From contig CAIIXF020000001.1 in NCBI GenBank assembly GCA_903813345.2, positions 1,860,001 through 1,924,000 of the forward strand: DNA of 64,000 bases. The letters run 5' to 3'. How positions within the stretch are numbered: position 1 is the first letter of the stretch; every line of letters starts with the position of its first letter. Source of the stretch: Owenia fusiformis. Taxonomy: Eukaryota. This document shows positions 5,748 to 48,154 of the stretch, one piece after another. The notes below the pieces were generated by a model. It was not told the origin of the DNA and made no database searches. It saw only the letters and a program-made list of their open reading frames with translations. A program made the translations under genes and the position numbers.

Positions 5748-6011
5748 GTCTACTCCTTATCAGTAAAGAAGCCCTGAATCTGCTCCTTGATGTGCTAATT
5801 TGGCAATTGTGCTGACCTATTGATTGTGCAATTGTGCTGACCTATTTTCGTCGAAATTATCTGAAACTTGAGTCTAAACTGGCGAAATCCATATTTGTCT
5901 GATTGGTTGTTAAATTATTTATCAGTGTTGGTTACGTGACCAAAGGAACTCTGTAAATGGTAGTTCTGGCTCAGGCTCCAGGTGCATGCCGAGTTTGCCG
6001 AAGCTTGTGTG

Positions 6012-8628: not shown

Positions 8629-8632
8629 GAAA

Positions 8633-8650
8633 TGGTGGCCATTGTGGTGT
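8633..8650 (+). promoter_or_regulatory. Primer binding site (TGGTGGCCATTGTGG...)
   Basis: TGG-initiated motif 4 bp after the 5' LTR. TGGTGGCC resembles the complement of a tRNA-Ile 3' end; the tRNA identity is tentative. Confidence 0.6.
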
Positions 8651-8759
8651 GATGTAATACTTGACGTATTGACCCAAGCCCAGTTTAACGCCATTACTTA
8701 CGTTTATGCTAATTTTCACTCATTAATATTCAAAGCGAGATCATTAACTGTAATCAACA

Positions 8760-11700: not shown

Positions 11701-11907
11701 CTGACTCAAACTATATCAAAGGAGAAACCTGATTCCAAACTGAAAAGAAAATACTGTAAAATATGTGACTCTGGAAGTCATTAAGTATTTGATTGTACCA
11801 AAAGACATCCAAACTCCAAAGTTCCTGGAGCCACATTATGCTTCTATTGTGCCCAGGACACTCATTGTGTAAATGCCTGTCCCTCCCTTAAGGGTAGGCT
11901 AAGTTAG
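8760..11907 (+). pseudogene. gag: Long Gag (disordered N-terminus, capsid, two CCHC zinc knuckles), disrupted
   Basis: ORF 8760-9176 overlaps ORF 9148-11784 (+1 frame, at TTTTAAAAAA). Capsid-like region FNGKCSLSAFLIQF...GWTDEE...LEGEA...FIDAL...PKTLNEALTMA. In-frame TAA inside the knuckle CKICDSGSH*VFDC, then CFYCAQDTHCVNAC and TAG at 11905-11907. Confidence 0.85.
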
Positions 11908-13609
11908 CTTTTATGAGGCTAAGTTAGCTTTTAAGCTAACTTGCATGAATGTATCTGCATAGTAAGTCCAAGCCACCACAGGTACATCATATCCTTCCAA
12001 AAAGTGGCTGGTGAGACCATATGTGTTTGATGTGAATGTAAGAAAAAAAACTAATTTTGTTTTTCTTAACTGAAGTATTCCTGTACCATTCCTGATGTTT
12101 CTCATCTTATGTCTACCAGATGTCCTGAGCTGTTGAAGCTTTGATTCCTGAGAAGCTTAAACTACAATGTTCAGTGGTAGTGATGACATGACCACACACA
12201 GAGCATTATTTAATTGTTCATATGTTCTGGATTACCAGTGACCTGCTTTACTCAAGCAATGGGGTTCATTGTAAACACTGGCCTGATCACCCAATGTTTA
12301 CAGACATGAAGCCTGTTTACGCTTTGGGAAACAAGTCTATTGAAATCCAAAGGACATTGCAATATTATAGTTTTGTCCCTGCTTCTGTTTAAATGAGGTG
12401 GACGAACTTGTGACCCTCTGGGGGTGAGTGCCACGATGGACAAGAGCTCTGTCCATTTGCTTCATCGAAGTGTTTCCCTACTACTGACTGTAGGTTCCCC
12501 TCATACCCCCAGTTCCACTTTCAAGCAACTGTCCCAGCTTGTGACCCCATCCACTGCAATGGATGTGCCCATCAAGTTTGAATCCTACCTCGCCTCCCTA
12601 ACTGCCTTTGTACCAAAAGGGCAATGATGACTGAAGTTGAATCATTCTCAGTACAAATGTTATGAGATATTATCTGAATCCTTCCAATTGGAAACTGTTT
12701 GTGAAAGGATATATCTTGAAGATACGTTTGATTGATTCAATTTCATTTGACAACCCTTTACTTTTTGGCCAATTCATATCACATGTGTGATATTCAAAAT
12801 TTATTATTGAATAACCAGTCTTATTTCCAGGACTGTAACACTTTTATTCCAGCCCAGCATGAACCAAGTGATGACCTTCAACCTAATTAACATTGTACAC
12901 TATGCTATATAAAAGTAATCTGAACAGATGAACACTATCATGATTGCTGTTCGATTAAAGTGACTTATTTGGTGTACCCAATGAAGCGACGATATTGGGA
13001 GCCACTCTTAATATTGACATTGAGAATTAAAGCTTATGAACAGAGACATGTACCCTATACTTATAAGAATTGATTCTGCAGCTTTGTGATGACTCTGCAT
13101 TTTGAGGAAGGACACAAAGAATGGCTGACAAGCTCAATTTTATATTGTACTAGAGACCATGCCAATACTAAACATATTCCCCTATTATAGTGGGGAACCA
13201 GTGACAATGACTGTATCATCAATGAATGTGATGGTAAGAACATTTAATAAACAGTACAGACAGTATGGATATTACTTCAACCCTTCACAAGAACCATAAC
13301 CTACAAGAGAAAGAAGAAAGACACTAATGCTGCTAGAGACATTTTTGTAATTAAACGTGATTGTTTATGCTAGCCTTTTATGTTATGTATTTCAGGTGAG
13401 AAAGTGTAAACTAACATTGTATTTGATTTAGACTTATGTTTATTAAGTAGTAAACTGATTATACATTAAAACCTTATTGTGTATATATCTATCAATTCCT
13501 TTACTAAGTACTATGTTGTAAATGATGTGTGAAATGCTTATTTTGGGTAATGTGTTTATGTATGATTTTTCATCTTTATAATTTCATAGTTCGAGGACGA
13601 ACTGTTTTT

Positions 13610-13622
13610 AAAGAGGGAGCAG
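13610..13622 (+). promoter_or_regulatory. Polypurine tract
   Basis: AAAGAGGGAGCAG immediately before the 3' LTR; preceded by the small hairpin GTTCGAGGACGAAC. Confidence 0.8.
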
Positions 13623-16250
13623 TGTGACGATCCTTCAGATTACTTTGAGCATGGTAATGGAATTGCCTTGAAGGATTGTCACTTTGTTCAACTTTTTGCT
13701 CTTCACTTTATCAATTGTGCTTTTAGTTACTCAATATTTAAAGAGTTATAAAATAATTTAAATTCTGTAAAAGGGTAGTCAGTATTTCTACTTTGGCTAT
13801 ACTCTTAAAGTATGGTTAGAGTTTAATCATTTTACTCTATATTTATATTTATTTTTACTAACCTTCTCTTGTGTTTTTAATGTAATATTATTTACAGGAT
13901 TAATGTCAACATATATATTTTGTTCATAATAAGACTTTAATGTGAATGTTTTAGGCCCAGTTTCATGTTTAATGTTATGTTACAAACTTTTTAGAAAGGG
14001 CAGTTGTCTGGGTTTGTTTCAAAATCCAAAGTGAGGCTTATTAAGCTTGATTTAAGTAAATAAGCACGATTTAAGTGAATTGTCTTTTTCTGTGCTTTTA
14101 TGATTCGAATTCAAGCCGGCCAGACATGGAAAACATTTTGTGGAATTTTAAACATTAAATCGTCACTAAAATTGGATATTTATATTGCCGCAGATAAACC
14201 AACTTAGGTGTACGAGTTGGTAAAGGTAATTGACTTGATCTAATTGTATTTTTGCAGAGTTTTAGTCTTTGAAAAGAAGTATCTGTACACTTGATTTTTT
14301 TTCCTTAATTTTATTGATTTGCCTTGTGAACATCCCGTATTTAAATTGTCCCAGGGATTGTTAAGGAACATTTGACAAGGTTAAAGCAAAGTTACACGCA
14401 GAGTTTTTGTCTTAAAGAACCTATGTAACTTATTAACGAGCGTCGAAAGCAAGTTCCCGGGGTTCCTTATGGAACCTTCTATACAACATTCCCCACAGGG
14501 AATCGTTTAGGAATATTTGACAAGGTGTACGGAAAGTTACTGTCTTTACGAACCTTATGTAGCTTGCTCTAAACCAGAGTCAACTGCAAATTCCAGGGGT
14601 TCATAGACACCTCTATACGACATTCCCCCCCCCCCCCCCATCCAGTTTGGGACTGTATTTAGTTTGTTCACAGGGTAAATTTTATTGATACACTAGAAAT
14701 ACTCCTTTGTATATTTGTATGTTAAATTCTGGGTAATTTAAAGGTGAAATCCCGGGCTTATGGGACCATTATCAAACAACTGATCATTGAAGTACTTTTA
14801 AGGATCACGGTCTTTCGAAGCCCATTTTCGGACTTAAGACACCCCCTCCCCTTCTAGTTTTCCATGTCTGGTCTAATTCTGTGTTAACCACATTCTTATT
14901 CATTGATTATAGATACTAGAATACTTTTAAAATACTGTTTCCCATTTGTTTGCCAATTGTACCATAGTCTGATAGTGGCAAAATGATGTTCCACTTTTCA
15001 TGTGAGTAGTATAGGGAGCTTATTTCAACCCCCCCCCCCCCCCAGGGATGATATAAAATTGCACTGTTAAGTTACATTTTTGGAAAAAGACCCATTTTAG
15101 GCTTTATTGCAAATTGTTTAACTGAACTTCCATTAGCTGTGCTGTTTTATGCATGTTTGGTTTGAGAGATTATTTACTTGATATTACCATCTCGACAGTA
15201 CTGAATTGTGTAATGTTTGTGTAGATTAATAAATAGAAATAGAGTCGTTTTTATACATTATATAAAAATCCACAGAATATCACTTGTTGTGTTCGATTGT
15301 TTTTTATATATATGTTAGAAAATCCCCCCCCCCCCTCATTTTATCTGAAGTAGATTCTGGATTCAAAATAGATTCCGACTAAATTCCAGGTGACTTTAGT
15401 GATACTAACATTCAAGCAACAAGCTTTATCTTAGCTCATATTTGCTAAGGGCTTCTTTGAATAACAATCACTCGCAATAAGTCATACATATATTTCCCCA
15501 GAAACTATGCAATAGGGTATACATGTAGATAAATTACAATCAAGGATCTTACTTTCTGATTTAACCCTTGTCTTATTGATAATATTAGTGAGAATTTCAT
15601 TCACCCTGGTGAGTTTGACAGACTCTTGATTTGAAATAGCCCTACTTTAATTCTTACAAAATCTCCCATTTTAAGTGTGAACAGTGAGCTTTATATACAG
15701 CTCGAAGTCCATTGTAGCCCCCAGTGGCTAAGACTTCCACCTGGTTATACTCACACCCTAACATTATACTTATTTGATACAACTGAACACTGGGCACATT
15801 CAGAATCTGGAGTCTGTTGCCATTCGCCTTTATGAGACATACAACTTACATTAAAAACTGACAAATCTTACTTAGTCTATATTCAGATTTTGTTATCCCG
15901 TAATTGTTATCCCGAAATTGTCCCACTTCATCCTAATAATATTTATCCCAGAATTTATCCCTAAATTTTTATCCCTATATTTATCCCAGAATTTATCCCT
16001 AAATTTTATCCCTAAATTTATCCCTAATTTATCCCTAAATTTTCATCGCAAAATTTATCCCAATTTGATCCCATTTTGTTTTGATACTGTGAACACGGAC
16101 GTTGTTCAATTAAATAGGGATATACATTTCAACTTTTACTTGAACTTGTCCCGAAACTAAGTTAATGAAAACATCAAATCAAACTATTGACTCTTAGACT
16201 GTATTCTGTTTACGACCCCCAAACCACGCTACCACACGAGGGTCGTGACA
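13623..16250 (+). repeat. 3' LTR (2628 bp)
   Basis: Copy of the 5' LTR, followed by TSD TGTG. Confidence 0.95.
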
Positions 16251-19950: not shown

Positions 19951-20718
19951 TTCTAGATATCAGCGTCCATTTATTGTAACTCGCGTTTGCTAACATTTGC
20001 TCAGTTCTGAGATGAAGGCCACACGGGTAGTAAAAAGGCCAACGTTGGAACTATTTGTGACCTACATCCCTATTTTCCTAATTAAAATGAAAGTCGAACC
20101 CTTCCTCTTTATTTTGATACCAAACAACAGCATGCTAGGCACTTAAAATTAGGTAAACTTTACACCTCAAAAGTGCAAAAACTTAGCTTCTTATATAAGA
20201 TAAGATAATCACAATATAGGGGATTGCAACAATTTCGGAAATTCGCGGAGGTCAAAGCCACATTTGCGGGACTTCGCGGGACATTGCGGGACACGCGAAT
20301 TAGCCTAATTTTGATCAAATTCGCGGGATAATCCCGCCATTCGCGGGACACTTGACAGCTCTGCATGAACTTGTATCAACAGCTGACATTAGAGACACAT
20401 GTCTTCTTGAACTGTTTTTTTTCAGGAGAGTGCAAGTATTTTGTATATTTGTCACAGTGAGTTATAGTAGAGTTTCAGTAAAGAAGCCTTACCACAACGT
20501 TGATTCAATCAAAGCTTATTGGCATACTTATCAGTGAATGTGGATTTAATGGCTTATTATTCGTCTTGCCCAAAAGGAGCATTGGGCAGGCTCAGACAGA
20601 ACATGACTTGAGACTGAGAACATGAACATGATTTGAACAATTCAAATCAAGGTAAAGTTAACTTTGCTCACAAAGGATATTAAACTACATATTCAAAGAT
20701 ATCTCTGTTTTCAGGAAG

Positions 20719-23700
20719 ATGAGTAGACTCAGCAGAATGAGTTTTGCTTCCATAAAGTTGGACAGCCCTGCAGATGACATCTCAATGAATGATGATGACA
20801 GTAGTATGAACAATACAACAGGCAATATATTTGATAGAAACATTGATATTGATGACACTGAGGATATACCAGCCACCCAGCCTGTGGACCAGAGAGTGTT
20901 GAAAGGTATGTTGTATGAATTATATCACGCATTGATTTTATTAACCTCTATTAGAGGAATATTTTTGAAAAGAATGGATTAATTACTCAAATTTGCAGTA
21001 CTAGACCTCTTACTTAGTAGATCTTTTTTTTATTTTTATTAATCATCTTTATTGTATTCCATAAAATACAGATATACAAACTTAAACAATTGCCAAAGTC
21101 TAATGACATTGACGGCAATTTTGAGTGAAATCCAAAGGAATGTTATTAAGTTTTTACATAATAAGTTATTTTTATGTCATGTTATTGTTAAAATAGATGA
21201 AAAAAAGTCAATAAAATATCATCACACTACACTCGTGTATCACAAAAATGTGTAAGGTTTTTTTTTTTTCCCTTGGCCAGAGGGATTTCAGTTGTAACAT
21301 GTTGTAATCGATTACATGTCCAAAAGATCTAGACCCTGGTGGATATAATATGTTATTATATACCCAATATGTAACACTAATCCTGATTGGTCAATACCTA
21401 GTCACGTGTTCCGAAATAGATTTACTATTTCCCTCGGAAAGTTATATTCCCTCAAATGTGACGTCAGCGGGAATATACATTTAAACTATTGCCCGCTGAC
21501 GTCACAATTGCAAGTTCTATTACCCTTGGAAACGTCTGCGCATCATCACTGCGCAGACAAAAACAGAAAAATGGAGGATGAGCACAAACACAAATCAACT
21601 CCGTTCACCATGACAGACGTGCGTGAACGATACAATATAAGCAACGTGTATAAAGTTCCCTAAGCTCAATACGTCTGTGTAATTTCAAGTGTTATGATAA
21701 TCTATTCCGCGTGTTAAACGCGATTGAATTTGTCAAGTGAGAGTCTCAGAGGCAAAAATTTCTGTTGAGCATCTGATGACGTCACAGCTTATATTGCTAA
21801 CAATGGACCCGGGGACGGGGGCTTTGTAAGCCTTTTTGGCCTTCGCAGAGGAAACGGGACAAGAGTCAGTATAGGGTATATAATAAAACAAATAGTGACT
21901 GCCTAATTTCGAGCAATAGTGTAAATGATTTCCCCTTGGGAATATCCTCTACAATGTACTATTCCCTCAGCCTGCGGCTTCGGGAATAGTACATTGTAGA
22001 GGATATTCCCTCGGGGAAATAATTTACACTATTGCCCTCAATGGCAGTCACTATTTGTATACTACTATGTTCATTAGTTTCTCATTGACATCTATTGGAA
22101 ATTTATTATCTCCAAAAAGTAAGAACTGGGATTGATCATGCATATTAAGTCCATCATAGTGGGTACGGATCCCTATCGTCTCCAATCCTGCAAGTAGTGT
22201 TGTTCTCTGTTCTGTCAGCAGTGGGCATTTCAACAGGAAATGTAAAGTTGTCTGGTTTGTATTGTCACATAAACATTTAGGATTAGCAACCCGTTCAAAG
22301 TTGTGTGCATGGAGGTGAGCTTGCAAGAGAAGTCCGGACCTGAGTCGGTTTAACGGAATTTCTAGGTAGCGAGGCATGGCATTTTTTAGTTTTGATGTGG
22401 ATAGGGTAGAAGCATGGCTTCCATCGCCTCTTACTATTCTTTTAAATCTTGAAATTGGCTGGCCAATTCTATAATCTGGTGGAAGGTTATTCCAAAGGGC
22501 CATACCTTTAAAAATTATAGATTTCTTAGCCAAAGCGCTTGTTTGAAGGGGAATCTTATAGTCCCTGTGGCTCCTTAGTGAGCGCACCTGTATATCATTC
22601 TCATAGGACCTGACAAGATTACAAATGAAAGGAGGAAAGTTATTATATCTTGCTTTAAAAATAAATATTTTGAGATGTTCCTCTCTTCTAGAGGATAAAG
22701 TTTTCCAGTTTATTGATGAGAGAACTTTATTAGTGTTCGAGCCATGGATTGCTCCAGAGACTAGACATGCTGCTCTATAATGTAACCGTTCAAGAGATTG
22801 CAATTTGGTATCTGATGCACTATTGTATATGATGTCACAATAATCAAAATGAGGGAGTATGTATGCATTATATAAAGTTTCAAGGTGCTTGCTTGACAAG
22901 ATCTTGCAGAGTTTCTTCATGGGCCTCATCAGGCTTATTACTTTGTTAATTAAGTGGTCAATGTGAGCGTTGAAGTTTAGGTGCTGGTCAAGAGTAAGTC
23001 CGAGATGTTTATGAGTATTACATCTAGGGACTATTTCCCCGTTCATTTTCAGAGGAGGAGGTTCAATATTAATGTTTGAATGGGGGATGGGGGAAGGGTG
23101 TATTGGAGATCTTTAAGAAAATCCCTGGGAAGTAGTGTTGTATTTCAGTAATCATTTCTTTTTCGTTTAGTATACAATGATCTTCATTTATGTACTATGT
23201 GTTTATTATTTCCAGACTTCTTCCAGTAAAATCTTAAAACTACTCCCCCCTTTGAGAATAGTTTCTGTCAGGCCTGTATCTTAAAGAACAAAAGCAATGG
23301 ATAACTAATACAGTTCCTAGATTTTAGGCAATGTCATCATTATATTACAATTTACAAGTTCACTAATATTTTTTTTATTACAGATGTGAATGCTTATGTT
23401 GAGGTGCGTTCAGTTGCGGAAAACCGTAGTAGAGCGATCATGAGAGAGTTAGAGTTACTGGGGGCCAACATTATGAAGAAGTTTTCAAATGAAGTGACTC
23501 ATGTTGTATTCAAAGATGGCAAGAAAAGTACCAGAGACAAAGCTATTAAGAAAGGAATGCATCTTGTGAATGTGCTTTGGGTAGATAGGTAAGCAAAATA
23601 TAAAGCTATTAAGAAAGGAATGCATCTTGTGAATGTGCTTTGGGTAGATAGGTAAGCAAAATATAAAGCTATTAAGAAAGGGATGCATCTTGTGAATGTG

Positions 23701-26700
23701 CTTTGGGTAGATAGGTAAGCAAAATATAAAGCTATTAAGAAAGGAATGCATCTTGTGAATGTGCTTTGGGTAGATAGGTAAGCAAAATATAAAGCTATTA
23801 AGAAAGGAATGCATCTTGTGAATGTGCTTTGGGTAGATAGGTAAGCAAAATATAAAGCTATTAAGAAAGGAATGCATCTTGTGAATGTTCTTTGGGTAGA
23901 TAGGTAAGCAAAATATAAAGCTATTAAGAAAGGAATGCATCTTGTGAATGTGCTTTGGGTAGATAGGTAAGCAAAATATAAAGCTATTAAGAAAGGAATG
24001 CATCTTGTGAATGTGCTTTGGGTAGATAGGTAAGCAAAATATAAAGCTATTAAGAAAGGAATGCATCTTGTGAATGTGCTTTGGGTAGATAGGTAAGCAA
24101 AATATAAAGCTATTAAGAAAGGAATGCATCTTGTGAATGTTCTTTGGGTAGATAGGTAAGCAAAATATAAAGCTATTAAGAAAGGAATGCATCTTGTGAA
24201 TGTGCTTTGGGTAGATAGGTAAGCAAAATATAAAGCTATTAAGAAAGGAATGCATCTTGTGAATGTGCTTTGGGTAGATAGGTAAGCAAAATATAAAGCT
24301 ATTAAGAAAGGAATGCATCTTGTGAATGTTCTTTGGGTAGATAGGTAAGCAAAATATAAAGCTATTAAGAAAGGAATGCATCTTGTGAATGTGCTTTGGG
24401 TAGATAGGTAAGCAAAATATAAAGCTATTAAGAAAGGAATGCATCTTGTGAATGTGCTTTGGGTAGATAGGTAAGCAAAATATAAAGCTATTAAGAAAGG
24501 AATGCATCTTGTGAATGTGCTTTGGGTAGATAGGTAAGCAAAATATAAAGCTATTAAGAAAGGAATGCATCTTGTGAATGTTCTTTGGGTAGATAGGTAA
24601 GCAAAATATAAAGCTATTAAGAAAGGAATGCATCTTGTGAATGTGCTTTGGGTAGATAGGTAAGCAAAATATAAAGCTATTAAGAAAGGAATGCATCTTG
24701 TGAATGTGCTTTGGGTAGATAGGTAAGCAAAATATAAAGCTATTAAGAAAGGAATGCATCTTGTGAATGTGCTTTGGGTAGATAGGTAAGCAAAATATAA
24801 AGCTATTAAGAAAGGAATGCATCTTGTGAATGTTCTTTGGGTAGATAGGTAAGCAAAATATAAAGCTATTAAGAAAGGAATTCATCTTGTGAATGTGCTT
24901 TGGGTAGATAGGTAAGCAAAATATAAAGCCATTAAGAAAGGAATACATCTTGTGAATGTGCTTTGGGTAGATAGATAAGCAAAATATAAAGCTATTAAGA
25001 AAGGAATGCATCTTGTGAATGTGCTTGTAGATATGTAAGCTACTGATTAAATTAGGATTTGGCACCTTGTTGAGAGAATAATCTTGTGGAGATGACTGGA
25101 AATATGCATAACAGTCTGAATAAAATGTTTACATCGGAATCCTCTCTTACTTTTTAAGACAAATGTGAATATTTCAATAGATACATGAATGATGTAACAT
25201 GTGATCCACTAATGTTTAACAAAGTGGTTGGTAAAAGATTGAATTATTTTATAATATGTAATTACTATTAGCCTATGTAAGATTCACTACATTATCAATG
25301 CCTTTAAAACATTAAGAACACAATAATGGGAATCTAGAGCCTGCAACATGTGAAAAGTCAAAATATTAACCATATTTTCAATTTGATTTTAAGCTGCAAG
25401 CAAAACCAAGAGCATGTATCTGAGGGTTTATTCCCAGTGATTTTACCAAATGAGAACAACTCACCTCTTATCATAGGAAAACTCAAGGTATTTATGGACT
25501 ATGTCATTATTTAATATTCATCATGATATTTGTGACAAAAGCCAATAAAAGTTTCTGAAAAATAGATATCTGTGTGATATATTCTTAAAATAGTTTAAAT
25601 ATTCTTATACATAAATATACATGTGTATATATATTATAATTATTACCTGAGAATGTAGATACAAAGAATATCTTCTAGAATTCGTTGTCATATAATCCTG
25701 TTTTGACAAATGTAATCCCCATGTATAAATCCCTGTTTTACAAATGTAATCCCCTTGTATATACCCCTGTTTCACAAATGTAATCCCCTTGTATATACCC
25801 CTGTTTCACAAATGTAATCCCCATGTATATACCCCTGTTTTACAAATGTAATCCCCTTGTATATACCCCTGTTTCACAAATGTAATCCCCTTGTATATAC
25901 CCCTGTTTCACAAATGTAATCCCCATGTATATACCCCTGTTTTACAAATGTAATCCCCTTGTATATACCCCTGTTTTACAAATGTAATCCCCATGTATGT
26001 GACACACTACGATCACTAACATGTCAAACAATGTCAAACAATGCCAGGACTGTTGTTTGTTAAATAGGTATTTGTTTGTTGATGTTTGGAAAAAGGGTTT
26101 ATATTAATGTTTTTCAAAACATCACTGACAGTTCATTTTTTGCAAAACATTGGCCAACAAGTATAAAACTCGATTTGAATTGTGTGAAAATCATTCAGTA
26201 ACCAAGCAAGCAAAGCATACGCATCTCACAAACACGCTTGGAACTTGAAACTAACTGAAAATCAGAACTGCAATAAAAATGGAAACATTACAACTTATGA
26301 GCTACCTAGTTGGAGGTGTCACCACTGATGAGCCAAATACTTCAAATGCGCCAATAACTACTGACGTACATAATAGTGGATATAAAATCAGTGACTTTAC
26401 TGGCTATGGTGCAAATAATCTGGATAATCGTTATGATATGACTGCATTTCATTATAAGGTAATTGAAATACTTTACTTTTATATTGCTGAATTAGAAATT
26501 ACATAAAATAAGTTTCATTCAATAACTTTCATTAAGATTAGCTCATCCGATTATTTAATTTTTTAAATTATGAATTATGATATCAAGAATTAAAACCAGA
26601 TAATTAAAGAATGTGAATTGTGGTGTTGTATTTTTCTTTTAATATAATTCATAACTTTTATTATATTTTATTTCCAGTCAACCAATCAACTGCCTGTCAA

Positions 26701-29700
26701 CATGTCAGCCACCTACTCTGGTCACTTAGCAACAAGAGACTCGGTGACATCACATCACTGTATCTCAAATCAAAATGGCTGCAACAATGTTCCACAGACA
26801 TCACCTGATATGAGAGAACCAATCACATCAAGGACACTATCTCCATCTATTGACAATCTTACAGCATCTCCAAACCCGTCAGTTGAGGAAATCAGTAATC
26901 CAAGTAGTCCAGAGTCAATGATAAGTGACAATAGTGATGTTTATAACATGGGTAAATCAATAGCTAAAGATGGAGCCTCTAAAGCTGTCAAGCCAAAAAA
27001 CTCATACATTGGACTCATCATTGAAGCAATCTTAAGTAAGCCAGATAAGCGTATGATCTTGGGTGAGATCTATCAATATATCCAGGACAATTTTGAACAG
27101 TACAATAATGGAGAGCGGGGATGGAGGAATAGTGTCCGATACAATCTATCTCTGAATGGATGCTTTGTCAAGTCAGGAAGAGCTAACATTGGAAAGGGAA
27201 ACTATTGGTCGATCCACCCTGAGTGTATTGAGGACTTCTCTAAGGGGGATTACAGTAGACGAAGTATCAGACATCGTACCAAGCGTGGCGAAAAGGGACT
27301 TAAGTCACATCAGTCAAAGTCACCTTCCTTTTCCCACCAGTATCATCCCAAGCCTGCAGGAAGCAACCGTCCTCCAAAAGCAAACTCCAAACAGATGTCC
27401 CCAATTTCTCATATGCCTCCACAGTCTCAGTTCCAAGAATCTTCAAGGAGTTATATTTATCAACCACCAGTGACAACTGCTTTTGGGTCGCAGTTCAACA
27501 TAACTAATTCTCTGAAAACCACTTACAGTTCACAACCAAGAGTTAACATTAGTTATGAGCCTCAGATCACATTGGAGAGGAGTACTGACCTGTATAGAGC
27601 ACCCTTTGATAATTTATATAGCAACAGTGGTTTCCATAGTAACCTGGCTGATGTAAGCTACTCTGTTAACAGCCAAGGCTATACATGCTTGTAAACTAAA
27701 GCGGACAATTAAAACTATATGCATACTTTGCCAACAAAGAGAGCCAATCAAAGGTTTTTTAATTTCAAATACTAGGTTGTGATAATCTTTCAAGAGATCT
27801 TGATAGCTACGTTTGCCTGTATAACTGTGTCTTTACTTAAAAATAAAATCTAAAAAATTACTTTATCTTTTGTTTTCATATTTTTGTTTTTTAACAAACA
27901 TGTGGTATTGTTATTGTCACCATTTTTGTTGCTGACATTCAGTGTCTGTAACAAATGATTACATTTATGTAACAGGGGTGTAGTTTTATTTTTATAATGC
28001 CTTTTCAGTTTTTGGGTGGAATGTCTGTCGAGTGTTGTCCAACTAATTTTTTTATGTAACTTGAATGGCGGCATTTGTGCCTTTTCATGTTATCAAATGT
28101 GTGCATTTTGATAGTTAAAGGCCATTCTTTCTGAAAAACAAACTGATACATTCTCATAATATATGCATGTACCAGTATAAGTGCTCTAAAAGATTTCATA
28201 ACCTGGACAGAGTTTCTGATAGGGAAGTGCTATAGCACCATTCTCATTTCAGAAATCAAAATCGATGCAGCCGAAAGATTTTGATGAGGAGGTCGCAAAT
28301 AGTGCAGAAAAAGTCCAGAAACGTGTGAGAAGAAGGAATAACCTGGCCAATAAGCGCAAAGGTGGACTGCTAGGCAAGATTTTGGTGGAGGAAACGCAGC
28401 CTGAAACACCTGTAAGCTAATTTGCAAATTATAGGCAGAATATGCATTTTATATCAAATAGAACCTTTGTTTGAAGGATTAAACTTAAATTACATTTTCT
28501 TTTAAAATTAAACTCTATGGAAGAGCCATCCTAGCAATGCCCTTGGCTTTCTCCTAAATTAATTTGTCCTGTTCTTATCATACTTGTTTTAATAATGCTG
28601 TTATTGAAGCTGTGTACTGTTAACTACTGGTTTCCCTGAGCTACTCATTTCCCCAAAGGGTGAGCATTTAAACTATGCTATAAGGCAGGTGATGGACTTT
28701 TTCAACTTGGACAATTTTACCCAATTAGCATTCCCTTATGTTTTTTTTTTTTTATAATCTGTTTTATTTCATTATATACAAGTACAAATAGTTTCTGATA
28801 TAAGTGACCAATCGCTATGAAAGGATAGCATTATAGGTTCACTTTAAATATAAAAAGAACATTGAGTATGTGAAAAAGATGTATTTTTCTGACAAAGGGG
28901 TTTGCTGGTCTTTGCTGGGCAATGGTGCTGGGGCAAGGTGATAAGATGATCTGTTGGAGCATAAGGAGGCCATCTTGAGCATTAAGTGGAATTGTCTGAT
29001 AAAAAATTTGTAACTAGTTTGAAAATCATAATGTTCTGTTCAGTTGAAAGATCAGGATGACCAAATAAAAATGTTTTGATTAGACCATTTTTGTCCATTT
29101 GAAGGTTACCTAATAAGTGGAGGATGATGACATTTAGATTATGAGAGTTCAGGTTGAGACCACAATTGAAAAATATGTGCTTATGTGAATTTTGATTAAA
29201 ATCCCCAAATCACCACCCCTGTCCAAAATGGTGAAGCAGGCCACAAACTCTTTAATGATGCATTTGTTAGTTGTCATAACAACCCAGCTGTTGACATGTC
29301 GTCCTATGTGTTGTCATCAGACTTTTGCACACTCTATATTTGTTTCAAGGATTCACCAGGAGGATCAGGAAAGCGCTTTATGTCCCCCAACATCACCATT
29401 CCTGATACACCCCCAAGTATGAGGGAGAAACTTGCACAATTGAAGCTGGGAAAACTCTCATATGGAAGCACAGGTAGAAATTCTTGATATCAACAAGTCA
29501 ATGGAATTCAAATGAAATTATGTTTTGAATGCATAATTCAGCCAATACATTCCAGAAAACAATCATAATTTAAACGTGTTAAATCTCTTGTGATATTTGC
29601 CCTTAACTTTCAGTTTTGTACAATTTTCTTGGGTTTCCCTTGTCATTGCTAGTTCCATTAGGAGACACAAAAATGTGACCATGAATAATATTTAGGTAAC

Positions 29701-32700
29701 ATTATGAAAAACTTTTATTTCTTGAATAGGATGGTCAAATGATTTACTGATTATTCATTCTTATGTATCATTACCAGTTTAAATTGAATTTTTAAAATTT
29801 GCATTTCTTTATCTCAGTTTTGAAGTCAAAATGGCTTAGTCATGTATGAACTGTTTTAGTGTTGTATTTATCAGATGACATGTCATTGGCTGATACTCCT
29901 GAGGCTTCACCTTTGACCCCCATACAGAGACGTCTCTTCAGTAAGTCCATTTGTTTCAAAAATTGAATGTACATGTATGGTGCATGTTTATTGAACAATT
30001 CACATAAATTCCTTTTCTATAAGTGTTGAAATATGTATTTCAAAATATTTTTAAATTTTCTTCATGAAGGTACTGGCCTAAATGAATATGATGCAAACAA
30101 AAAACATATTCTTTAAAATGAAGGTTCTTCGTGAGGAAAATGGCTGTGTTGCTCACAGTATAAAAGTTTAACTGTACATACTACATATTATAGTGATCTC
30201 TATGTTTCTTTCAGATAACAGTTTAAAAAACAGCAGAGACAACACTCCTTTTAAGAAATCCACTCCAACTGATGCCCTCCCAGGAACTTCTGCTTCAAGT
30301 GCATTAAACTTCCCTATTCAATTCTCTGATAATAGTGAAGAAATAGGTGAATTTAAGGAATCTTTTAACACAACAGACAGTGAAAGCTCTCAAGAGAGAA
30401 TCGCTCAAAAAGTTGATGATATTGTTATGAACTTGGGTAGCTCACCCTTGTCAAAACCCGCTCCGGGTAATTTGCTAGGAACAGATCTTCATAGCACTAG
30501 ATGGAGTTTAGCACAAGGATCAATCAAATCTGAACATCAGGATCATAAAGATGATGCTTCAGATAGTGATGATACAGATATCTTAGAAGTGGAGGAGGAT
30601 ATTTTAGTGAGCCATTATACAAAATCTCCAGATAAAGGAAGTCCTAAGAAACTGAAAGCGAGCCCATATAAAAAAGCAAAAAGTCCAAGTAAACAAGAAA
30701 CTCCAACCAAACCAGAGAAAAGTCCAGGCAAACAAGCCAAAAGCCCTAAGAAAGCTACAAAAAGTCCAGTTGGAAAAAGTCCAAATAAAGATCCCAAAGG
30801 TCCAAGTAAACAATCAGTAAGCCCTAAACAAGCTACAAAAAGTCCCAAAAAGAAAACCCCACAAACTTTAAAGTCAGAACAAAATCCTAAGTCTAGTCCT
30901 AAAATGGTCAAACCAAGGAAACCATCAGGCAAAAGGAAGTTGTTATCTCTGAAAGAGCATGATGAACCAAGGCTTTCATTTATAGTAGAGCCAACCATAT
31001 CATCCAATACACTTCAGACCAAAGAAAAAATACACGAGCCAAAACAGAACAGAAAACCTGGACCAAAATCTAAGACAATCATAGAAAAGAAAGTAGAATC
31101 CAATAAAGAACTTGAAACAGCCTCAGGACACAGCAAAGTTGAGGAAAACACAGGAGAAAAGACATTGCACTCATCTGTGAGTAAAACAAGGAGAAAAAGT
31201 GTGACATTTGCAAATGACTGTAAAACAACAAAAACACCAACCAATAGGAGGAAAAGCATTGCAACCACCAATAGAACTAAAGATGTTGAATCGAAAGAGC
31301 CATCAATGAATAGACTTAATAGTAAAACAGATAATAATAAAACAAAGGAACAGCCTAAGGCTGCTGTTGAACCTGATGTGGCAACCCCAGTTGGTAGACC
31401 TAGAAAAAGGAAAAGTGTTGCTGTTGATGAGATAGTCCCTAATATGGATAAAGACATGACACCAAGTTCAAAGAGAACAAAAGTATCAAATTCAGAACCT
31501 AACAAAACATCTCCCATTGTGTCTGATAAAAAGAAAGTTTCTGTTAATCGTCGACGTAGTGGGCGGTTAGCTGGCCTTGTTCTCCCAAACATTCACGATG
31601 CACCTCTGGCCTCAATCAAGGAAAACTCAACAGAGAAAACTGACCTATTACTCTTATCCCCAGTAAAAGATGCAGTTGGAAAAGAGCCATGTCCGAGTAA
31701 TAATGGTTTCATTGGTTTTGTAAAACCAATTTCTCAGCCATTCAGGTCCCTCAAACAGTTGGATGTATTAAATGACTCAAGTGATCTGTCTTTAGCATAT
31801 TCTCCGAAATCTAAGAAGCTGAATAAGAAAAGTTCAGCTATTCTTGCCAAAAACCCCCTGAATATAAGCACTGATTCTGAACCAGATTCTCCCCGCAAGC
31901 CTCAAAGAATTCGTACATCTAGGCCTTGTATCACAAACTTACCATACACAGGGTCACAATCTCATGTAACAGTTCTAACACGTCCTCGAAGAAGTACAGA
32001 TGAATTCCGGCCTACTCAGTCATACAGTGCCTCACAAAATCAAAGAAAATATAAGTCGTCAAGTTCAGGAAGTGAAAGTGACGGTGATGGGGGACGCCAC
32101 AGAAGGAAAGTTGCGATTGTTGGACCATGTCCTGGTAACTTGGTAATGACCAGTTTACATTCTGAGTAAGTACAACTTATTTTTCTGTTGACTCCTTCAA
32201 CTCAAACCCTTTAAACCCATTTGTTTATTTTAGAATTGTCTCTTATTTTGCATTGTATTGTATTGTATTACAATGTACTGTATTGTATTGTATTGTGATG
32301 TGACATCAGTTGCCATATTGCATAATCTACAACAATACGACTTTACATAAATCCAAAGTTTTTGAAAATTGAGTGCCAGGACTTTCTCTTTAAATTAATC
32401 CTCATTTATAAAAGGAAAAGGTTATGTACCATAATGAAGTCCATATAGGTATTTATAAGTTATTCAAAATGCGCACTTTTTCAGTGAACAAGGCATTGTT
32501 ACATCAGTAGTGAAGAAACTTGGAGTGTTTCATATCACAGATGCAGTGGGCCCTGGGACATCTCATGTTGTGTGTGGTGGGCCCAGAAGGACCTTAAATG
32601 TACTGAAGGGGATAGCAAGGGGCTGTTGGCTGGTATCTAAGGAATGGGTATGTGTGAAAATATCTAACCTACTCAAATGATTTAATTCTGATAACAGTAA

Positions 32701-35176
32701 AACCTGTCTAATCTGAACACCTCTGGGACTGGCCAATAGTGTTTGGATTTGCAGGTATTTCATTGGCAATATACATTTTGTTGGCCAATAGTGTTTGCAT
32801 TGGCAGGTGTTTCATTGGCAATATACATTTTGAGTTTTTTTAACATGAAGGTCCATGACAGATTAAAAAATGGAATGAAAAAATGTTCATATTTAAACAT
32901 GTTGAGATTAGAGAGGTATTTTGATATACAAGGTTTACTGTGTACCATATACAATACAAAATTAAATTGTCAAACAATGACCATGACTGAAAACATCATG
33001 TCAAATATGTGAATATATAGATGAAATAGAAGAGATTTTGTTTGTCATGTTTCCAGGTTCTGAAATCTCTGGAGGCAGACAAATGGCTAGATGAAAAGGA
33101 ATTTGAAGTTACAGAATACTTCCCTGTTGCCAAGGTAACATTGATTTGAATAAACAAATTGACTAAAATCATGCAATCCATTGGTTGTGATGTCATTATT
33201 ACACTTTCAGACCAGAAATAGAATTACAGTTTTGCTAATTTTCATAAACTTTAATTTTCTTTAAAAACATCACCTGCAAAGCATGACATCATAAATATAT
33301 TCAGGATTTATTTGAAATATCTTTATATGCACTTTCATTAAAGTAAAAGTGCCTGTACACATGTATAGAGTGATAAACTGTAAAGTGATGAAAACATTTC
33401 TTTTTGCTTCTACATGACTGTGTAGATCTCATTTGTATAAAACATAAGTCTCTATGCATATTGCCTTGAATCTTATCCCTGAAACTTTCAAATTCATTCC
33501 TCTACAGGGCGTCAAATAAGTCTGTTCTCCCCCCTTAACTTTTTTAATTCAGGAATAACATAGCGTTGGTATATATCATCTTAAAGGGAATTTAATTTGC
33601 TGATCACACACCAAATTTCAGAGTGATTGGTTAAATTCCAAATTTTTTAGAGTATTTTTAGTGATGTCCATATTTCACTTTTTTAATAGTCTGTATGTCT
33701 CCCCCAGCAGCTCGGATGGCCTCAATTCTACGAGGATATGATCCTGTACAAATCATTCAGAACGTTTAATTTTAGGTGTTATCAACTATTTTGTGATGAA
33801 AGATGCCCCTGCTTCAAAGGCTCCCCTGAATGTAACACATTTTACTCTGTAATGATATTGAAAAACATCGAAATCACCCAATGTTGGCATTGTCACTGCA
33901 GTATCAACTTTTCACTTTTCATTCACTATAACTGGTAATTTTACTTGTTTTGACGTAATCAAAGGTCAACTACAACCTTACACGAAACACTGTAGGAATT
34001 TTATTAAGAATATTTCATTATTGATTTTTTGAGGGTGATCAGCATTTTCCATGAGCTTCAAAATGATATATGGGAAAGTATGATAAATTTAAAGATAAAA
34101 AAGTTAAAGGGGGAGAACAGACTTATTTGACACCCTGTATAAACATGGAAATTATTAGAAAAATGTGTTTTGTAATACTTGTACATTTGCTTGCAGACAA
34201 GGCGGGAGTTTAGAACAGAGAAACAGGAAAAATTGCCAAGTCTGTTTAATAATCTGGAGACCATTTATGTAGCTGAGAATTCTAGTCCTCCCAAATCACA
34301 CCTCACACAGCTTTTGCAACTATGTGGTGCTGAGGTATGTAGATGATACAACATATTTTATTATCATGTGTTGATTGAAACACTGGCATACTGTGCAAGG
34401 TTTTGTTATCGATGAGACATTAATTTTGTAATTTCAAGTGGTTGACAAGTCCAGAAGAGCATTGGGTTGATTTTTTTGATTTTTTCAATTTGATTAATGT
34501 TAATTCATAATATTCACTATCATCATGAAATGATATATTCGCTAAAATTATATACCAATAAGAATCCCTAAAAGCCATATGAAAAAACTTCTGTTCAAAA
34601 GTTTAAGCTAAAAGAATAATATTTTATAGTTTTATCGTAATGTTTGTATCTTAAAAAATTAAAATTGTTGGATTGAATAATCCAATTTTCAATTTGTGAT
34701 CGGCTGTTTGAAAAAACCTTCATTTTCAGGGTATGAGGTTTGTCAAATTGTAGGTAGTTGCTATTAAATATTTTCTTGTCATATAAAATAACTTTTCTTT
34801 CTTGTCATAGGTAACAATGTGTTTACGCAAGGCTACCCTTTGTGTGGGAACCATGACCAAGAATACTGCAATTACAGTCTCTGAACAATGGGTGCTAGGT
34901 ATGTTAGAATGAAGAAACTATAAATGTACACTCCCATAATAAATTTTCGTGAATAGATCATGAAATGATTAATGTTTCTTCATAAGCCTTTTGTAATATC
35001 ACTTGTACCAGAGTACTAATTAACTGAAGTACACGTAGTCCGTAGACTGGTAAATTATTGACTCTTTATGATTGTTGTATTTTCCAGACTCCATTACTCA
35101 GAATTGTGTCCAGAACATTGAGGATTATGTAATATCTCGACCTGAGCAAGTGCGGGAAGGAAGTCCTGAATTCTGA
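20719..35176 (+). CDS. MCPH1: Microcephalin (BRIT1), three BRCT domains, about 1113 aa, 12 coding exons
   Basis: Phase-consistent GT-AG exons: 20719-20905, 23384-23588, 25394-25487, 28253-28411, 29350-29473, 29875-29940, 30215-32165, 32485-32647, 33057-33134, 34197-34334, 34811-34898, 35088-35176. Diagnostic motifs: LKDVNAYVEVRS...VTHVVFKDG...HLVNVLWVDSC (BRCT1), KSKSMQPKDF, LVMTSLHS...RTLNVLKGIARGCWLVSKEWV (BRCT2), PPKSHLTQLLQLCGA...VSEQWVLDSI (BRCT3). Confidence 0.93.
21889..22056. repeat. About 165-bp near-perfect hairpin at the end of an interspersed repeat (~21340-22056)
   Basis: AAATAGTGACTGCC...GGGAATATCCTCTACAATGTACTATTCCC-loop-GGGAATAGTACATTGTAGAGGATATTCCC...GGCAGTCACTATTT. Confidence 0.75.
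22051..23060 (-). mobile_element. 5'-truncated LINE fragment (CR1/L2-like ORF2 C-terminus) in MCPH1 intron
   Basis: 331-aa ORF with HKHLGLTLDQHLNF, LYNAYILPHFDYCD and CLC...TTLHFLLKCP motifs typical of the post-RT region of non-LTR elements. Confidence 0.85.
23539..25040 (+). repeat. 63-bp tandem repeat (about 24 copies) spanning the MCPH1 exon end and 5' splice site
   Basis: Unit AAAGCTATTAAGAAAGGAATGCATCTTGTGAATGTGCTTTGGGTAGATAG|GTAAGCAAAATAT. Confidence 0.97.
25697..25998 (+). repeat. 34-bp minisatellite (about 8-9 copies)
   Basis: Unit ACAAATGTAATCCCC(T/A)TGTATATACCCCTGTTT(C/T). Confidence 0.9.
26020..26200 (+). promoter_or_regulatory. Putative promoter of the nested FoxQ2-like gene
   Basis: TATAAAA at 26162, initiator-like TCATTC about 30 bp downstream (26191); upstream cluster of TCAAACA/TGTTTG motifs. 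Confidence 0.6.
26279..27694 (+). CDS. foxQ2: FoxQ2-like forkhead transcription factor, 2 exons, about 398 aa, nested in MCPH1 intron
   Basis: Exons 26279-26458 and 26678-27694 (phase 0). Forkhead domain KPKNSYIGLIIEAILS...WRNSVRYNLSLNGCFVKSGR...GKGNYWSIHP...EDFSKGDYSRR; the GKGNYWxIHP...DFxKGD.RR tail is typical of FoxQ2. AATAAA at 27842. Confidence 0.85.
33505..34137. mobile_element. Tc1/mariner-type MITE
   Basis: TIR CAGGG(C/T)GTCAAATAAGTCTGTTCTCCCCC, TA TSD. Confidence 0.85.
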
Positions 35177-39842: not shown

Positions 39843-40698
39843 TTTTTATCACACTTTGAAAAAGTGCTATATTGTCGTCGTCTTGTGCTGTTGGGCGGGC
39901 AGGCGGGTGGGCGGGCGGCACATAAACCAAATCTTGTCATCAAATTTCCAGGATAACTGCTTACCTGTTCAACTTGAAATTTTTACAGATGCAAGAGCAG
40001 ACTAGTACCAAGATCTGATTAGGTTAAGGGCATGCTGGGTAAACTACGTGGCGGCCATTTTGAATTTTTCAACAAATCTTGTCATCAAAATTCCAGGAAA
40101 ACCACTTATCCGTTCAACTTGAAATTTTTACAGATGCAAGAGCAGACTATTGCCAAGATCTGATTAGGTTTTGGGTATGCTGGCTGAATTACATGGTGGC
40201 CATTTTGAATTTTCAATTTGGCGGCCATTTAGAATTTTTCAACTTGCTCCAAATTGACCAAATTCTTTTTTAAAAAACATCTACAAGTTCTCAGAAGTTC
40301 AAATCTGTCCTTAGATTTCAGATTTGACCTTTCATTCACCTTCAGTGACCTTGAAAAGGTCAAAAAAGTTGATTTTCTAATTGATATTTTGGATTTAAAT
40401 TTAGGTCAGCTTAATTACAAAACACTTACTGAGGCCTGAAAAAGTGAAATTTTCAAGGTCGAAGGTCATCAAATTAGGTCACAAACAATGTTATCTAAAT
40501 TTTCCAAAAGTTCAACACTACAAATAAATTCTTGTCATCAAAATTGCAGGAAAACCGCTAACCTTGTCAACTTGAAATGTTTACAGATCCAAGAGCAGAC
40601 TAGTGCCAAGGTCTGATTAGGTTTTGGCCATGCTGGGTAAATTGCATGGTGGCCAGTTTGCTCTTCAAAGTGCGATATTTATCACTGTGTGTCTTGTT
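39843..40698 (+). mobile_element. Helentron-associated (HINE/DINE-like) repeat, copy 1
   Basis: Subterminal inverted motif ATC.CACTTTGAA / TTCAAAGTGCGAT, (GGCG)n microsatellite, internal tandem units, T-rich target. Inverted copy at 47383-48095 and partial copy at about 50640-50945. Confidence 0.6.
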
Positions 40699-47382: not shown

Positions 47383-48095
47383 AACAAGACACACAGTGAT
47401 AAATATCGCACTTTGAAGAGCAAACTGGCCACCATGCAATTTACCCAGCATGGCCAAAACCTAATCAGACCTTGGCACTAGTCTGCTCTTCCATCTGTAA
47501 ACATTTCAAGTTGACAAGGTTAGCGGTTTTCCTGCAATTTTGATGACAAGAATTTATTTGTAGTCTTGAACTTTGGGAAAATTTAGATAACATTGTTTGT
47601 GACCTAATTTGATGACCTTCGACCTTGAAAATTTCACTTTTTCAGACCTCAGTAGGTCTTTTGTAATTAGCTGACCTAAATTTAAATCCAAAATATCAAT
47701 TTAGAAAATCAACTTTTTTGACCTTTTCAAGGTCACTGAAGGTGAATGAAAGGTCAAATCTGAAATCTAAGGTCAGATTTGAACTTCTGAGAAGTTGTAG
47801 ATGTTTTTAAAAAAAAAATTTGGTCAATTTGGAGCAAGTTGAAAAATTCAAAATGGCCGCCAAATTAAAAAATTCAAAATGGCCACCATGTAATTCAGCC
47901 AGCACACCCAAAACCTAATCAGATCTTGGTACTAGTCTGCTCTTGCATCTGTAAAAATTTCAAGTTGAACAGGTAAGCAGTTATCCTGGAAATTTGATGA
48001 CAAGATTTAGTTTATGTCCCGCCCACCCGCACGCCCAAACGCCCGCCCAACAGCACAAGACGACGACAATATAGCACTTTTTCAAAGTGCGATAA
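47383..48095 (-). mobile_element. HINE/DINE-like repeat, copy 2 (inverted)
   Basis: Reverse complement of 39843-40698; the empty site is visible in the paralogous segment at about 60345-60355. Confidence 0.7.
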
Positions 48096-48154
48096 TAAGA
48101 TTTTTATCATATAACATTACTACAAAATACTAAAAAGAAAAGTAACTCTCTTAC

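What the first reader, a model, noticed from the sequence alone, without database searches (positions are those of the whole stretch)
25394..28411. Same-strand FoxQ2-like gene nested in MCPH1, splice-compatible with the host in both directions
Seen: a complete two-exon forkhead gene with its own TATA/Inr and AATAAA lies between MCPH1 coding exons 3 and 4 on the same strand. Four junctions are all phase 0: the MCPH1 exon-3 donor (25488), Fox exon-1 donor (26459), Fox exon-2 acceptor (26678) and MCPH1 exon-4 acceptor (28253). Inference: the locus could make four in-frame proteins: MCPH1; FoxQ2-like; a chimera of about 500 aa (BRCT1 plus forkhead); and a BRCT1-less MCPH1 from the Fox promoter. 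The intronic poly(A) signal could also truncate host transcripts. Known: FoxQ2 patterns anterior neuroectoderm, MCPH1 controls chromosome condensation and neural progenitor division, and nested genes are more often antisense.
Basis: partly seen in the sequence, partly recalled or inferred. Interest (0 to 1): 0.85.

Follow-up and report, generated by a model that had tools for sequence, protein, structure and literature searches.

The report
Forkhead gene nested inside MCPH1 intron
A small, complete forkhead (foxQ2-type) gene of the annelid Owenia fusiformis lies inside an intron of the microcephalin gene on the same strand; both are already separate genes in the public annotation, and whether they make hybrid transcripts is untested.

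Summary
The window is Owenia fusiformis. A two-exon forkhead gene (CDS 26279-26458 and 26678-27694) translates exactly to the annotated 398-aa protein CAH1772308.1. It lies on the + strand inside a 2,765-bp intron of a 1,137-aa gene, CAH1772307.1. That protein's best solved relatives are human Microcephalin at both ends. The public host model joins 25487 to 28253 directly. All four junctions are phase 0, and both hypothetical chimeras are open frames. This coincidence is weak evidence, because 5 of 11 mapped host introns are phase 0. AATAAA and TATAAAA occur at chance density.

The forkhead gene belongs to the published Owenia-specific foxQ2 expansion, which is blastula-stage and apical (PMC9539403). 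It is probably foxQ2-6. It is the fastest-evolving copy, with His to Tyr in the recognition helix. I found no chimeric protein model in the protein collection.

The most likely reading is an independent nested gene; chimeras and host truncation remain untested.

Side findings:
- A 26-nt motif brackets the gene in inverted orientation.
- 22 tandem copies of a host 5' splice site lie in the preceding intron.

The parts
20713..35176 (+). Host gene: MCPH1 (microcephalin) orthologue. Twelve coding exons were mapped here; the public model adds one more at about 4928-4996.
   Evidence: P0121, 1137 aa, 100% identical. Exon map. Pfam BRCT, BRCT_2 and PTCB-BRCT. Best PDB hits are Microcephalin for the N-terminal BRCT (E=8.7e-22) and the C-terminal tandem BRCT (E=1.2e-38).
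23539..25040 (+). 63-bp x 24 tandem array. The unit is the last 50 nt of the host exon 23384-23588 plus GTAAGCAAAATAT. It carries 22 intact AG|GTAAGC donors: the authentic one and 21 copies.
   Evidence: Reading through the first donor gives VDR then a stop.
25394..25487 (+). Host coding exon immediately upstream of the nested gene (end of BRCT1). Its donor AAG|GTATTT is phase 0.
25685..25998 (+). 34-bp x 9 tandem array upstream of the Fox promoter region. It carries 10 of the window's 20 +-strand TAATCC words.
26162..26168 (+). TATAAAA, 117 nt upstream of the Fox ATG; a TCAGT Inr-like word lies about 30-35 nt downstream. This is a candidate core promoter only.
   Evidence: The word occurs at chance density: 52 found against 46.8 expected.
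26279..26458 (+). Fox exon 1 coding part (60 codons, METLQLMSY...). Donor AAG|GTAATT, phase 0.
   Evidence: The N-terminus is shared with paralogues P0002 and P0003.
26459..26677 (+). Fox intron, 219 nt, GT..AG. If retained, a stop follows after 16 codons.
26678..27694 (+). Fox exon 2 coding part (338 codons plus TAA), holding the forkhead domain (P0001 residues 165-247).
   Evidence: Pfam PF00250, E=1.6e-28 and 2.1e-28. Identity to P0001.
27842..27847 (+). AATAAA, 148 nt after the Fox stop codon; candidate poly(A) signal.
   Evidence: The word occurs at chance density: 170 found against 177 expected.
27957..27982 (-). Single inverted copy (23 of 26 bases) of the 26-nt core of the upstream 34-bp repeat. 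The Fox unit is therefore bracketed by inverted copies of one motif.
   Evidence: 9 matches in the window, all at these two sites, with 0.00 expected; local score 37 against a shuffle maximum of 32.
28253..28411 (+). Host coding exon immediately downstream (KSKSMQPKDF...). The acceptor is phase 0 and the donor CCT|GTAAGC is phase 0.

Best explanation
This is an ordinary host/nested gene pair in Owenia fusiformis. A short, lineage-specific foxQ2 paralogue (398 aa, two exons) sits on the same strand inside a 2.8-kb intron of the MCPH1 orthologue.

Shown: the gene has its own start codon and N-terminus. Inferred: it has its own promoter and poly(A) site.

The Fox gene is transcribed from its own promoter in the early embryo. 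By inference it is one of the six paralogues that peak at 4 h post-fertilisation at the apical pole, probably foxQ2-6. The host pre-mRNA normally splices 25487 to 28253 and removes the whole Fox unit with the intron. Chimeric or prematurely polyadenylated host transcripts are possible by-products of the shared strand, but nothing shows them to be products of the locus.

The nested copy is the most diverged member of its subfamily. It has changes in the DNA-recognition helix and in wing 2, so it may bind DNA differently from its sisters.
For: - The Fox model equals the public protein CAH1772308.1 exactly.
- The host equals CAH1772307.1, whose sequence runs ...IIGKLK directly into KSKSMQPKDF..., which is junction 25487^28253.
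- The host is MCPH1-like at both ends.
- Four paralogues in a tandem cluster on another chromosome (CAH1791637-40) start with the same METLKLMSY. P0003 is colinear with P0001 across the exon1/exon2 junction: 48% identity over 435 columns, E=1e-117. Exon 1, its ATG and the 26458^26678 junction therefore belong to the Fox gene.
- All 12 donors and 12 acceptors inspected are canonical GT/AG.
- Seudre et al. 2022 (PMC9539403; abstract, sections 5, 6, 8 and 9 read, plus passages) report 11 foxQ2 paralogues among the annotated forkhead models. Six are Owenia-specific and peak at 4 hpf at the apical pole. Only foxQ2-6 has introns, and foxQ2-10 is N-terminally truncated.
- My hits give the same count: six Owenia proteins of this subfamily, one of them a truncated partial (P0005).
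- No chimeric model was found in the protein collection: 1 identical hit among 562 candidates of 185-592 aa; 1 hit among 4621 candidates of 584-2000 aa; 0 scoring among 9 candidates of 30-217 aa.
Against:
- The link to a named paralogue (foxQ2-6) is an inference from counts and from the reported intron. The supplementary tables that would settle it are closed.
- The Fox exon-2 acceptor (TTATTATATTTTATTTCCAG|T) looks at least as good as the host acceptor at 28253, and it comes first on the host pre-mRNA. Sequence alone therefore gives no reason for the host donor to ignore it.
- The promoter and poly(A) words occur at chance density.
- A protein collection lacking chimeras is weak evidence, because annotation pipelines usually keep one model per gene.
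Confidence: 0.75

Rival explanations
1. The locus regularly makes in-frame chimeric proteins: BRCT1-forkhead (host exons to 25487 spliced to Fox exon 2 and ended at the Fox poly(A) site) and/or Fox exon 1 spliced to host exon 28253, giving a BRCT1-less MCPH1.
For: Both frames are open, at 502 and 1011 codons. All four junctions are phase 0. The Fox acceptor precedes the host acceptor and has a good pyrimidine tract. Exonization upstream of same-strand nested genes is documented in human (PMC3192792, abstract and passages).
Against: No such protein turned up in the collection at the lengths that would hold them. The public annotation keeps two separate genes. Phase compatibility is expected by chance, with 5 of 11 host introns at phase 0. 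The conserved own N-terminus of the Fox subfamily shows that no host exon is needed.
Confidence: 0.1
2. The nested gene acts mainly as a brake on the host. Its terminal exon and poly(A) site, or its transcription, cause premature termination or interference of MCPH1 transcripts when Fox is active.
For: The Fox unit lies on the same strand. An AATAAA lies at 27842, downstream of a strong acceptor. Nested-gene-linked premature polyadenylation of hosts is described in mammals (PMC11694760 and PMC3192792, passages).
Against: No 3'-end data exist. The same intron holds two further +-strand AATAAA words (25544, 26272), and the word is at chance density. Host and nested expression are mostly uncorrelated in mouse and human (PMC11694760).
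Confidence: 0.12
3. The nested copy is a decaying, functionally dead duplicate that only looks intact.
For: It is the most diverged copy. His to Tyr in the recognition helix is shared by only 3 of 122 other domains. Wing-2 positions that are 91-93% conserved are changed. Mean identity to 117 non-Owenia domains is 58.3%, against 64.1-68.4% for its sisters. Its end branch is 0.19, against 0-0.076.
Against: The 398-codon frame is intact, with canonical splice sites, start and stop. Most invariant forkhead positions are kept. The paper reports RNA-seq expression for all 11 foxQ2 paralogues and in situ signal for 9 of 11 (PMC9539403, section 9), although my link to one of them is inferred.
Confidence: 0.07
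4. The arrangement is an assembly or annotation artefact.
For: Two tandem arrays (63 bp x 24 and 34 bp x 9) lie next to the gene, and such arrays can mislead assemblers.
Against: Host exons on both sides are colinear and reproduce one 1137-aa protein. Array copies differ from each other by point changes. Both proteins come from one 62.2-Mb record with consecutive accessions.
Confidence: 0.03

Closest known systems
Owenia fusiformis foxQ2 expansion (Seudre et al. 2022, PMC9539403)
   Same: Same species. It is a clade-I forkhead protein without an EH-i-like motif and belongs to a species-specific subfamily. Its sisters form a tandem cluster on another chromosome. Like foxQ2-6, it has an intron.
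   Different: The paper's main text does not mention MCPH1, microcephalin, BRCT or a host gene; these terms have 0 occurrences, and 'nested' appears only in 'nested PCR'. Which numbered paralogue this is could not be checked, because the supplements are closed.
Mammalian MCPH1/ANGPT2 host/nested pair (PMC11694760)
   Same: The MCPH1 orthologue hosts a complete protein-coding gene inside one of its introns.
   Different: The nested gene (angiopoietin-2) is unrelated. From recall, not from a call, it lies on the opposite strand and in a different, 3'-ward intron. The two nestings are therefore independent events.
Same-strand nested genes and intronic L1s that cause exonization, intron retention and cryptic polyadenylation of the host (Kaer et al. 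2011, PMC3192792)
   Same: The geometry matches: a transcription unit with an acceptor and poly(A) signal on the host's strand, inside an intron.
   Different: Those effects were shown with ESTs and minigenes. Here no transcript data could be obtained.
Gene capture by terminal-inverted-repeat DNA transposons (Pack-type elements; recalled, not from a call)
   Same: A complete gene is bracketed by inverted copies of one short motif, with tandem subterminal copies on one side.
   Different: Only 26 nt are shared (23 of 26 bases). No target-site duplication or transposase was found, and no second copy of the motif occurs elsewhere in the 64 kb. The genome is not held, so paralogue flanks could not be compared.

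Membership tests
Forkhead-box transcription factors (Pfam PF00250) | Winged-helix forkhead domain above the family's gathering score | tested here: met
   99.1 bits against a cut-off of 27, E=1.6e-28, covering profile positions 2-87 of 88. The best solved relatives are FOXL2, FOXC2, FOXA, FOXD3 and FOXG1.
Forkhead-box transcription factors (Pfam PF00250) | Conserved DNA-contacting residues of the recognition helix (N-x-x-R-H) | tested here: not met
   Asn and Arg are kept, but His is replaced by Tyr (residue 215). Of 122 other aligned domains, 98% have His and only 3 have Tyr. This argues for altered binding, not against family membership.
FoxQ2 class | Closest relatives are FoxQ2 proteins rather than other clade-I classes | tested here: inconclusive
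   Spiralian relatives score 150-165 bits, against 78-91 bits for solved FOXL2, C2, A, D3 and G1 domains. Only one hit, P0061 (Leptochiton), is named Forkhead Q2 by its source. The tree had no outgroup classes.
FoxQ2 class | Intact FoxQ2-specific domain (CDD cd20035), the criterion used by Seudre et al. 2022 | not testable with these tools
   No CDD library is on hand. The paper states that all 11 divergent clade-I genes of Owenia met this criterion (section 8).
FoxQ2 class | [quoted passage not shown] | tested here: not met
   A loose pattern of my own, recalled rather than taken from a call, found no match in P0001 or its Owenia sisters. This is consistent with the fast-evolving motif-less group described in the paper.
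MCPH1 / microcephalin (host) | One N-terminal BRCT plus a C-terminal tandem BRCT pair, each closest to microcephalin | tested here: met
   Pfam BRCT at residues 83-156 and BRCT_2 at 1049-1122. PDB Microcephalin hits reach E=8.7e-22 for the N-terminal domain and 1.2e-38 for the C-terminal pair, against 3.7e-12 for BRCA1.
Host/nested gene pair | The nested gene lies wholly within one intron of the host; orientation determined | tested here: met
   The Fox unit, about 26162-27870, lies inside the host intron 25488-28252. Both genes are on the + strand.
Chimeric or read-through gene | Transcripts that join exons of both genes | not tested
No run is on record as RNA.

The most novel reading that the evidence does not exclude
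The foxQ2 transcription unit is a mobile cassette. It is bracketed by inverted copies of a 26-nt motif, nine in tandem upstream and one downstream. On this reading a DNA-transposon-like event carried it into the MCPH1 intron, and this route also spread the subfamily over three chromosomes. Because it landed on the host's strand, its acceptor and poly(A) site divert part of the MCPH1 transcripts at the blastula stage into a BRCT1-forkhead product or a truncated host.
Probability: 0.08. Interest if true: 0.6.

Novelty: new member of a known kind. Interest (0 to 1): 0.3.

Why it matters
If only the plain reading holds, this is one more host/nested pair, and both genes are already in the public annotation. 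It would be a footnote to the published Owenia foxQ2 expansion.

It would matter more if junction-level RNA data showed regulated cross-splicing or host truncation. A same-strand nested developmental transcription factor inside a cell-cycle gene, both active in the early embryo, would then be a tractable case of transcriptional interplay in a spiralian.

It would also matter if the paralogues' flanks showed the same inverted motif. That would point to transposon-mediated dispersal of a patterning gene.

The His-to-Tyr change in the recognition helix is a simple, testable lead for altered DNA specificity in a recent paralogue.

Tried and rejected
- RNA evidence: the look-up of sequencing runs (kind rna) listed 12 runs of one organism in 4 studies, with shares 0.10-0.25. 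There was no RNA holder listed. No statement on expression or junctions rests on these calls.
- The genome search 'own': no genome is held for this window. Paralogue loci, their introns and their flanks could not be read, and MCPH1 introns of other species could not be inspected. The held genome collections are prokaryotic.
- A 'shorter' protein search for transcript-derived fragments spanning the Fox exon junction or a chimeric junction gave 9 candidates, none scoring.
- Rfam scan of the whole window: 0 matches at gathering score.
- Pfam on the short host exons alone: 0 families.
- Promoter and poly(A) words as evidence were rejected, because they occur at chance density.
- The inverted motif as proven transposon ends was rejected. 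The similarity does not extend beyond 26 nt, and no target-site duplication was sought successfully.
- Literature: 'MCPH1/ANGPT2/nested' gave 5 papers. 'forkhead/nested/microcephalin/intron' gave 1 unrelated paper. Gattoni et al. 2025 (PMC12828049; abstract, part 1 of section 7 and passages read) has 0 occurrences of MCPH1 or microcephalin.
- Supplementary tables of PMC9539403 (gene identifiers, exon-intron table) were not seen.
Full report
**What is in the sequence**

- An exon at 25394-25487 follows an AG and precedes a GT. After one base that completes a split codon, it encodes CKQNQEHVSEGLFPVILPNENNSPLIIGKLK.
- An ATG lies at 26279 in a good context (aaaaATGg). It opens 60 codons that end at 26458, before GTAATT.
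- After a 219-nt intron that ends in TTTCCAG, 338 codons run from 26678 to a TAA at 27692-27694.
- A further exon at 28253-28411 encodes KSKSMQPKDFDEE....

Pfam places a forkhead domain in the long exon at E=1.6e-28, 99.1 bits against a cut-off of 27.

**Whose genes they are**

The long exon's translation finds a 398-aa protein of Owenia fusiformis at 100% identity and coverage (P0001, CAH1772308.1). Joining the two exons from the window reproduces that protein exactly.

The large downstream exon finds one protein among 4621 candidates: P0121, 1137 aa, CAH1772307.1. It comes from the same 62.2-Mb record and carries the preceding accession number.
- Its sequence runs ...IIGKLKKSKSMQPKDF.... The public model therefore joins 25487 directly to 28253 and skips the Fox unit.
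- P0121 has an N-terminal BRCT and a C-terminal BRCT pair.
- Its best solved relatives are human Microcephalin for both parts (E=8.7e-22 and 1.2e-38), well ahead of BRCA1 at 3.7e-12. The host is an MCPH1 orthologue.

I mapped twelve of its coding exons between 20713 and 35176. These translate to residues 23-1137 with one terminal stop. The public model adds a first coding exon near 4928-4996. In that model the exons flanking the Fox gene are coding exons 4 and 5, not 3 and 4.

**Is the splice compatibility more than chance?**

All four junctions are phase 0, and both hypothetical chimeras are open frames of 502 and 1011 codons. However, 5 of the 11 host introns I mapped are phase 0 (the host intron that contains the Fox gene). 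Two independent introns sharing phase 0 is therefore expected about one time in five.

TATAAAA (26162) and AATAAA (27842) sit where a promoter and a poly(A) signal should. In this AT-rich window, though, the words occur at chance density:
- TATAAAA: 52 found against 46.8 expected.
- AATAAA: 170 found against 177 expected.
- The same intron holds two more +-strand AATAAA words.

All donors and acceptors inspected are canonical. The Fox acceptor looks as good as the host's. Sequence alone therefore neither predicts nor excludes cross-splicing.

**What kind of Fox gene it is**

Its closest relatives are Owenia's own proteins:
- four consecutive genes on a 39.3-Mb record (CAH1791637-40; P0123, P0002, P0122, P0003);
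- a partial model on a 31.9-Mb record (P0005).

P0003 aligns with P0001 from the first residue (METLKLMSY against METLQLMSY) to the C-terminus. Identity is 48% over 435 columns, E=1e-117, and the alignment has no break at the exon1/exon2 junction. Exon 1, its start codon and the 26458^26678 junction are therefore ancestral parts of the Fox gene. This is the best argument I have for an independent transcription unit.

Outside Owenia, the nearest hits are spiralian proteins at 150-165 bits with assorted automatic names. One protein is named Forkhead Q2 by its source. Solved FOXL2, C2, A, D3 and G1 domains score only 78-91 bits.

Seudre et al. 2022 (PMC9539403; abstract, sections 5, 6, 8 and 9 read, plus passages) report the following:
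- 35 Fox genes were found among the annotated forkhead models, 11 of them foxQ2.
- Six of these (foxQ2-1, -4, -5, -6, -9, -10) peak at 4 h post-fertilisation at the apical pole, and the authors call them probable independent expansions in O. fusiformis.
- Only foxQ2-6 has introns, foxQ2-10 is N-terminally truncated, and tandem duplicates lie on two chromosomes.

My six Owenia proteins, one of them truncated, match that count. I infer that the nested gene is one of these six, probably foxQ2-6. I could not confirm this because the supplements are closed. The paper's main text says nothing of MCPH1 or a host gene. Two literature searches found no report of this nesting.

**The nested copy is the odd one out**

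I aligned 123 forkhead segments: P0001, 121 other proteins, and the second domain of one two-domain protein.
- P0001 has Tyr where 98% of the others have the DNA-contacting His of the recognition helix. Only 3 of 122 share the Tyr.
- It differs at three wing-2 positions that are 91-93% conserved.
- Its mean identity to 117 non-Owenia domains is 58.3%, against 64.1-68.4% for its four sisters.
- Its end branch is 0.19, against 0-0.076 for the other Owenia copies. This tree places the Owenia copies together at modest support, SH-aLRT 81, with a long-branched Dimorphilus pair among them.

The frame, the splice sites and most invariant positions are intact. I therefore read this as fast evolution or altered specificity rather than decay.

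**Chimeras and truncation**

I could not test these.

As a weak substitute, I note that the protein collection returned only the two canonical proteins in the ranges that would hold a roughly 500-aa or roughly 1010-aa chimera. It also returned no short fragment of the Fox N-terminal part.

Published work in human shows that same-strand nested units can force exonization and cryptic polyadenylation of the host (PMC3192792). It also shows that nested-gene activity can go with premature host polyadenylation (PMC11694760). These readings therefore stay open at low probability.

The latter paper also reports two relevant points:
- Orientation bias in mouse and human is slight.
- MCPH1 hosts ANGPT2 in both species, an independent nesting in the same host gene family.

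(a) An inverted motif brackets the Fox gene. The 34-bp x 9 array at 25685-25998, just upstream of the Fox promoter region, has a 26-nt core. This core recurs once, inverted, at 27957-27982, about 110 nt past the AATAAA, matching 23 of 26 bases.
- All 9 matches in the window lie at these two sites, with 0.00 expected.
- The local score is 37, against a shuffle maximum of 32.
- The array also holds 10 of the window's 20 +-strand TAATCC words.

The motif could be the remains of transposon ends or a regulatory module. I cannot tell which.

(b) A tandem array copies a host splice donor. The preceding host intron begins with a 63-bp x 24 array. Its unit is the last 50 nt of exon 23384-23588 plus the first 13 intron bases.
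- The array holds 22 intact AG|GTAAGC donors in tandem.
- Using any donor but the first would bring in an in-frame TAA.

**Verdict**

The pair is best filed as a new example of a known arrangement, built from two genes already in the public annotation.

Noticed in passing
window 23539-25040 (+): A 63-bp x 24 tandem array copies the last 50 nt of host exon 23384-23588 plus the first 13 intron bases. This gives 22 intact AG|GTAAGC donors in a row. Any donor but the first would add an in-frame TAA. It could be a decoy or U1-binding array, or a recent minisatellite.
   Followed up: partly
window 25685-25998 (+) and 27957-27982 (-): A 26-nt motif occurs in 8 tandem copies (within 3 mismatches) upstream of the Fox gene and once, inverted, just downstream. 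It occurs nowhere else in the 64 kb, with 0.00 expected by chance. The upstream array also holds 10 of the window's 20 +-strand TAATCC words.
   Followed up: partly
window 6011-16250 (+): Two 2.6-kb direct repeats (6011-8628 and 13622-16250, 99.5% identical) flank a 905-codon open frame (9067-11784). That frame has a weak Ty3-capsid match (E=0.0022, below cut-off) and ends in a Cys/His-rich stretch. This looks like a young LTR retroelement inside the host's annotated first intron, on the same strand.
   Followed up: partly
window 43207-46019 (+); 22051-23112 (-); 62066-62797 (+): Reverse-transcriptase open frames lie at 43207-46019 (Pfam RVT_1, E=7.7e-21 and 4.1e-09, the two frames overlapping). 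Two further long frames have no Pfam match. They look like non-LTR retroelement remains; the one at 22051-23112 lies in the host intron just before exon 23384.
   Followed up: partly
window 39843-40698 and 47383-48098; 56586-57064 and 57928-58406: Long inverted repeats: arms of up to 287 nt at 98% complementarity about 6.7 kb apart, enclosing the reverse-transcriptase frames, and 479-nt arms at 99% complementarity 863 nt apart.
   Followed up: no
window 4928-4996 (+): The public host model starts in a small exon 15.7 kb upstream of the next one, at 20713. That next exon itself holds an in-frame Met (RKMSRLS...). Which start is used is open.
   Followed up: no
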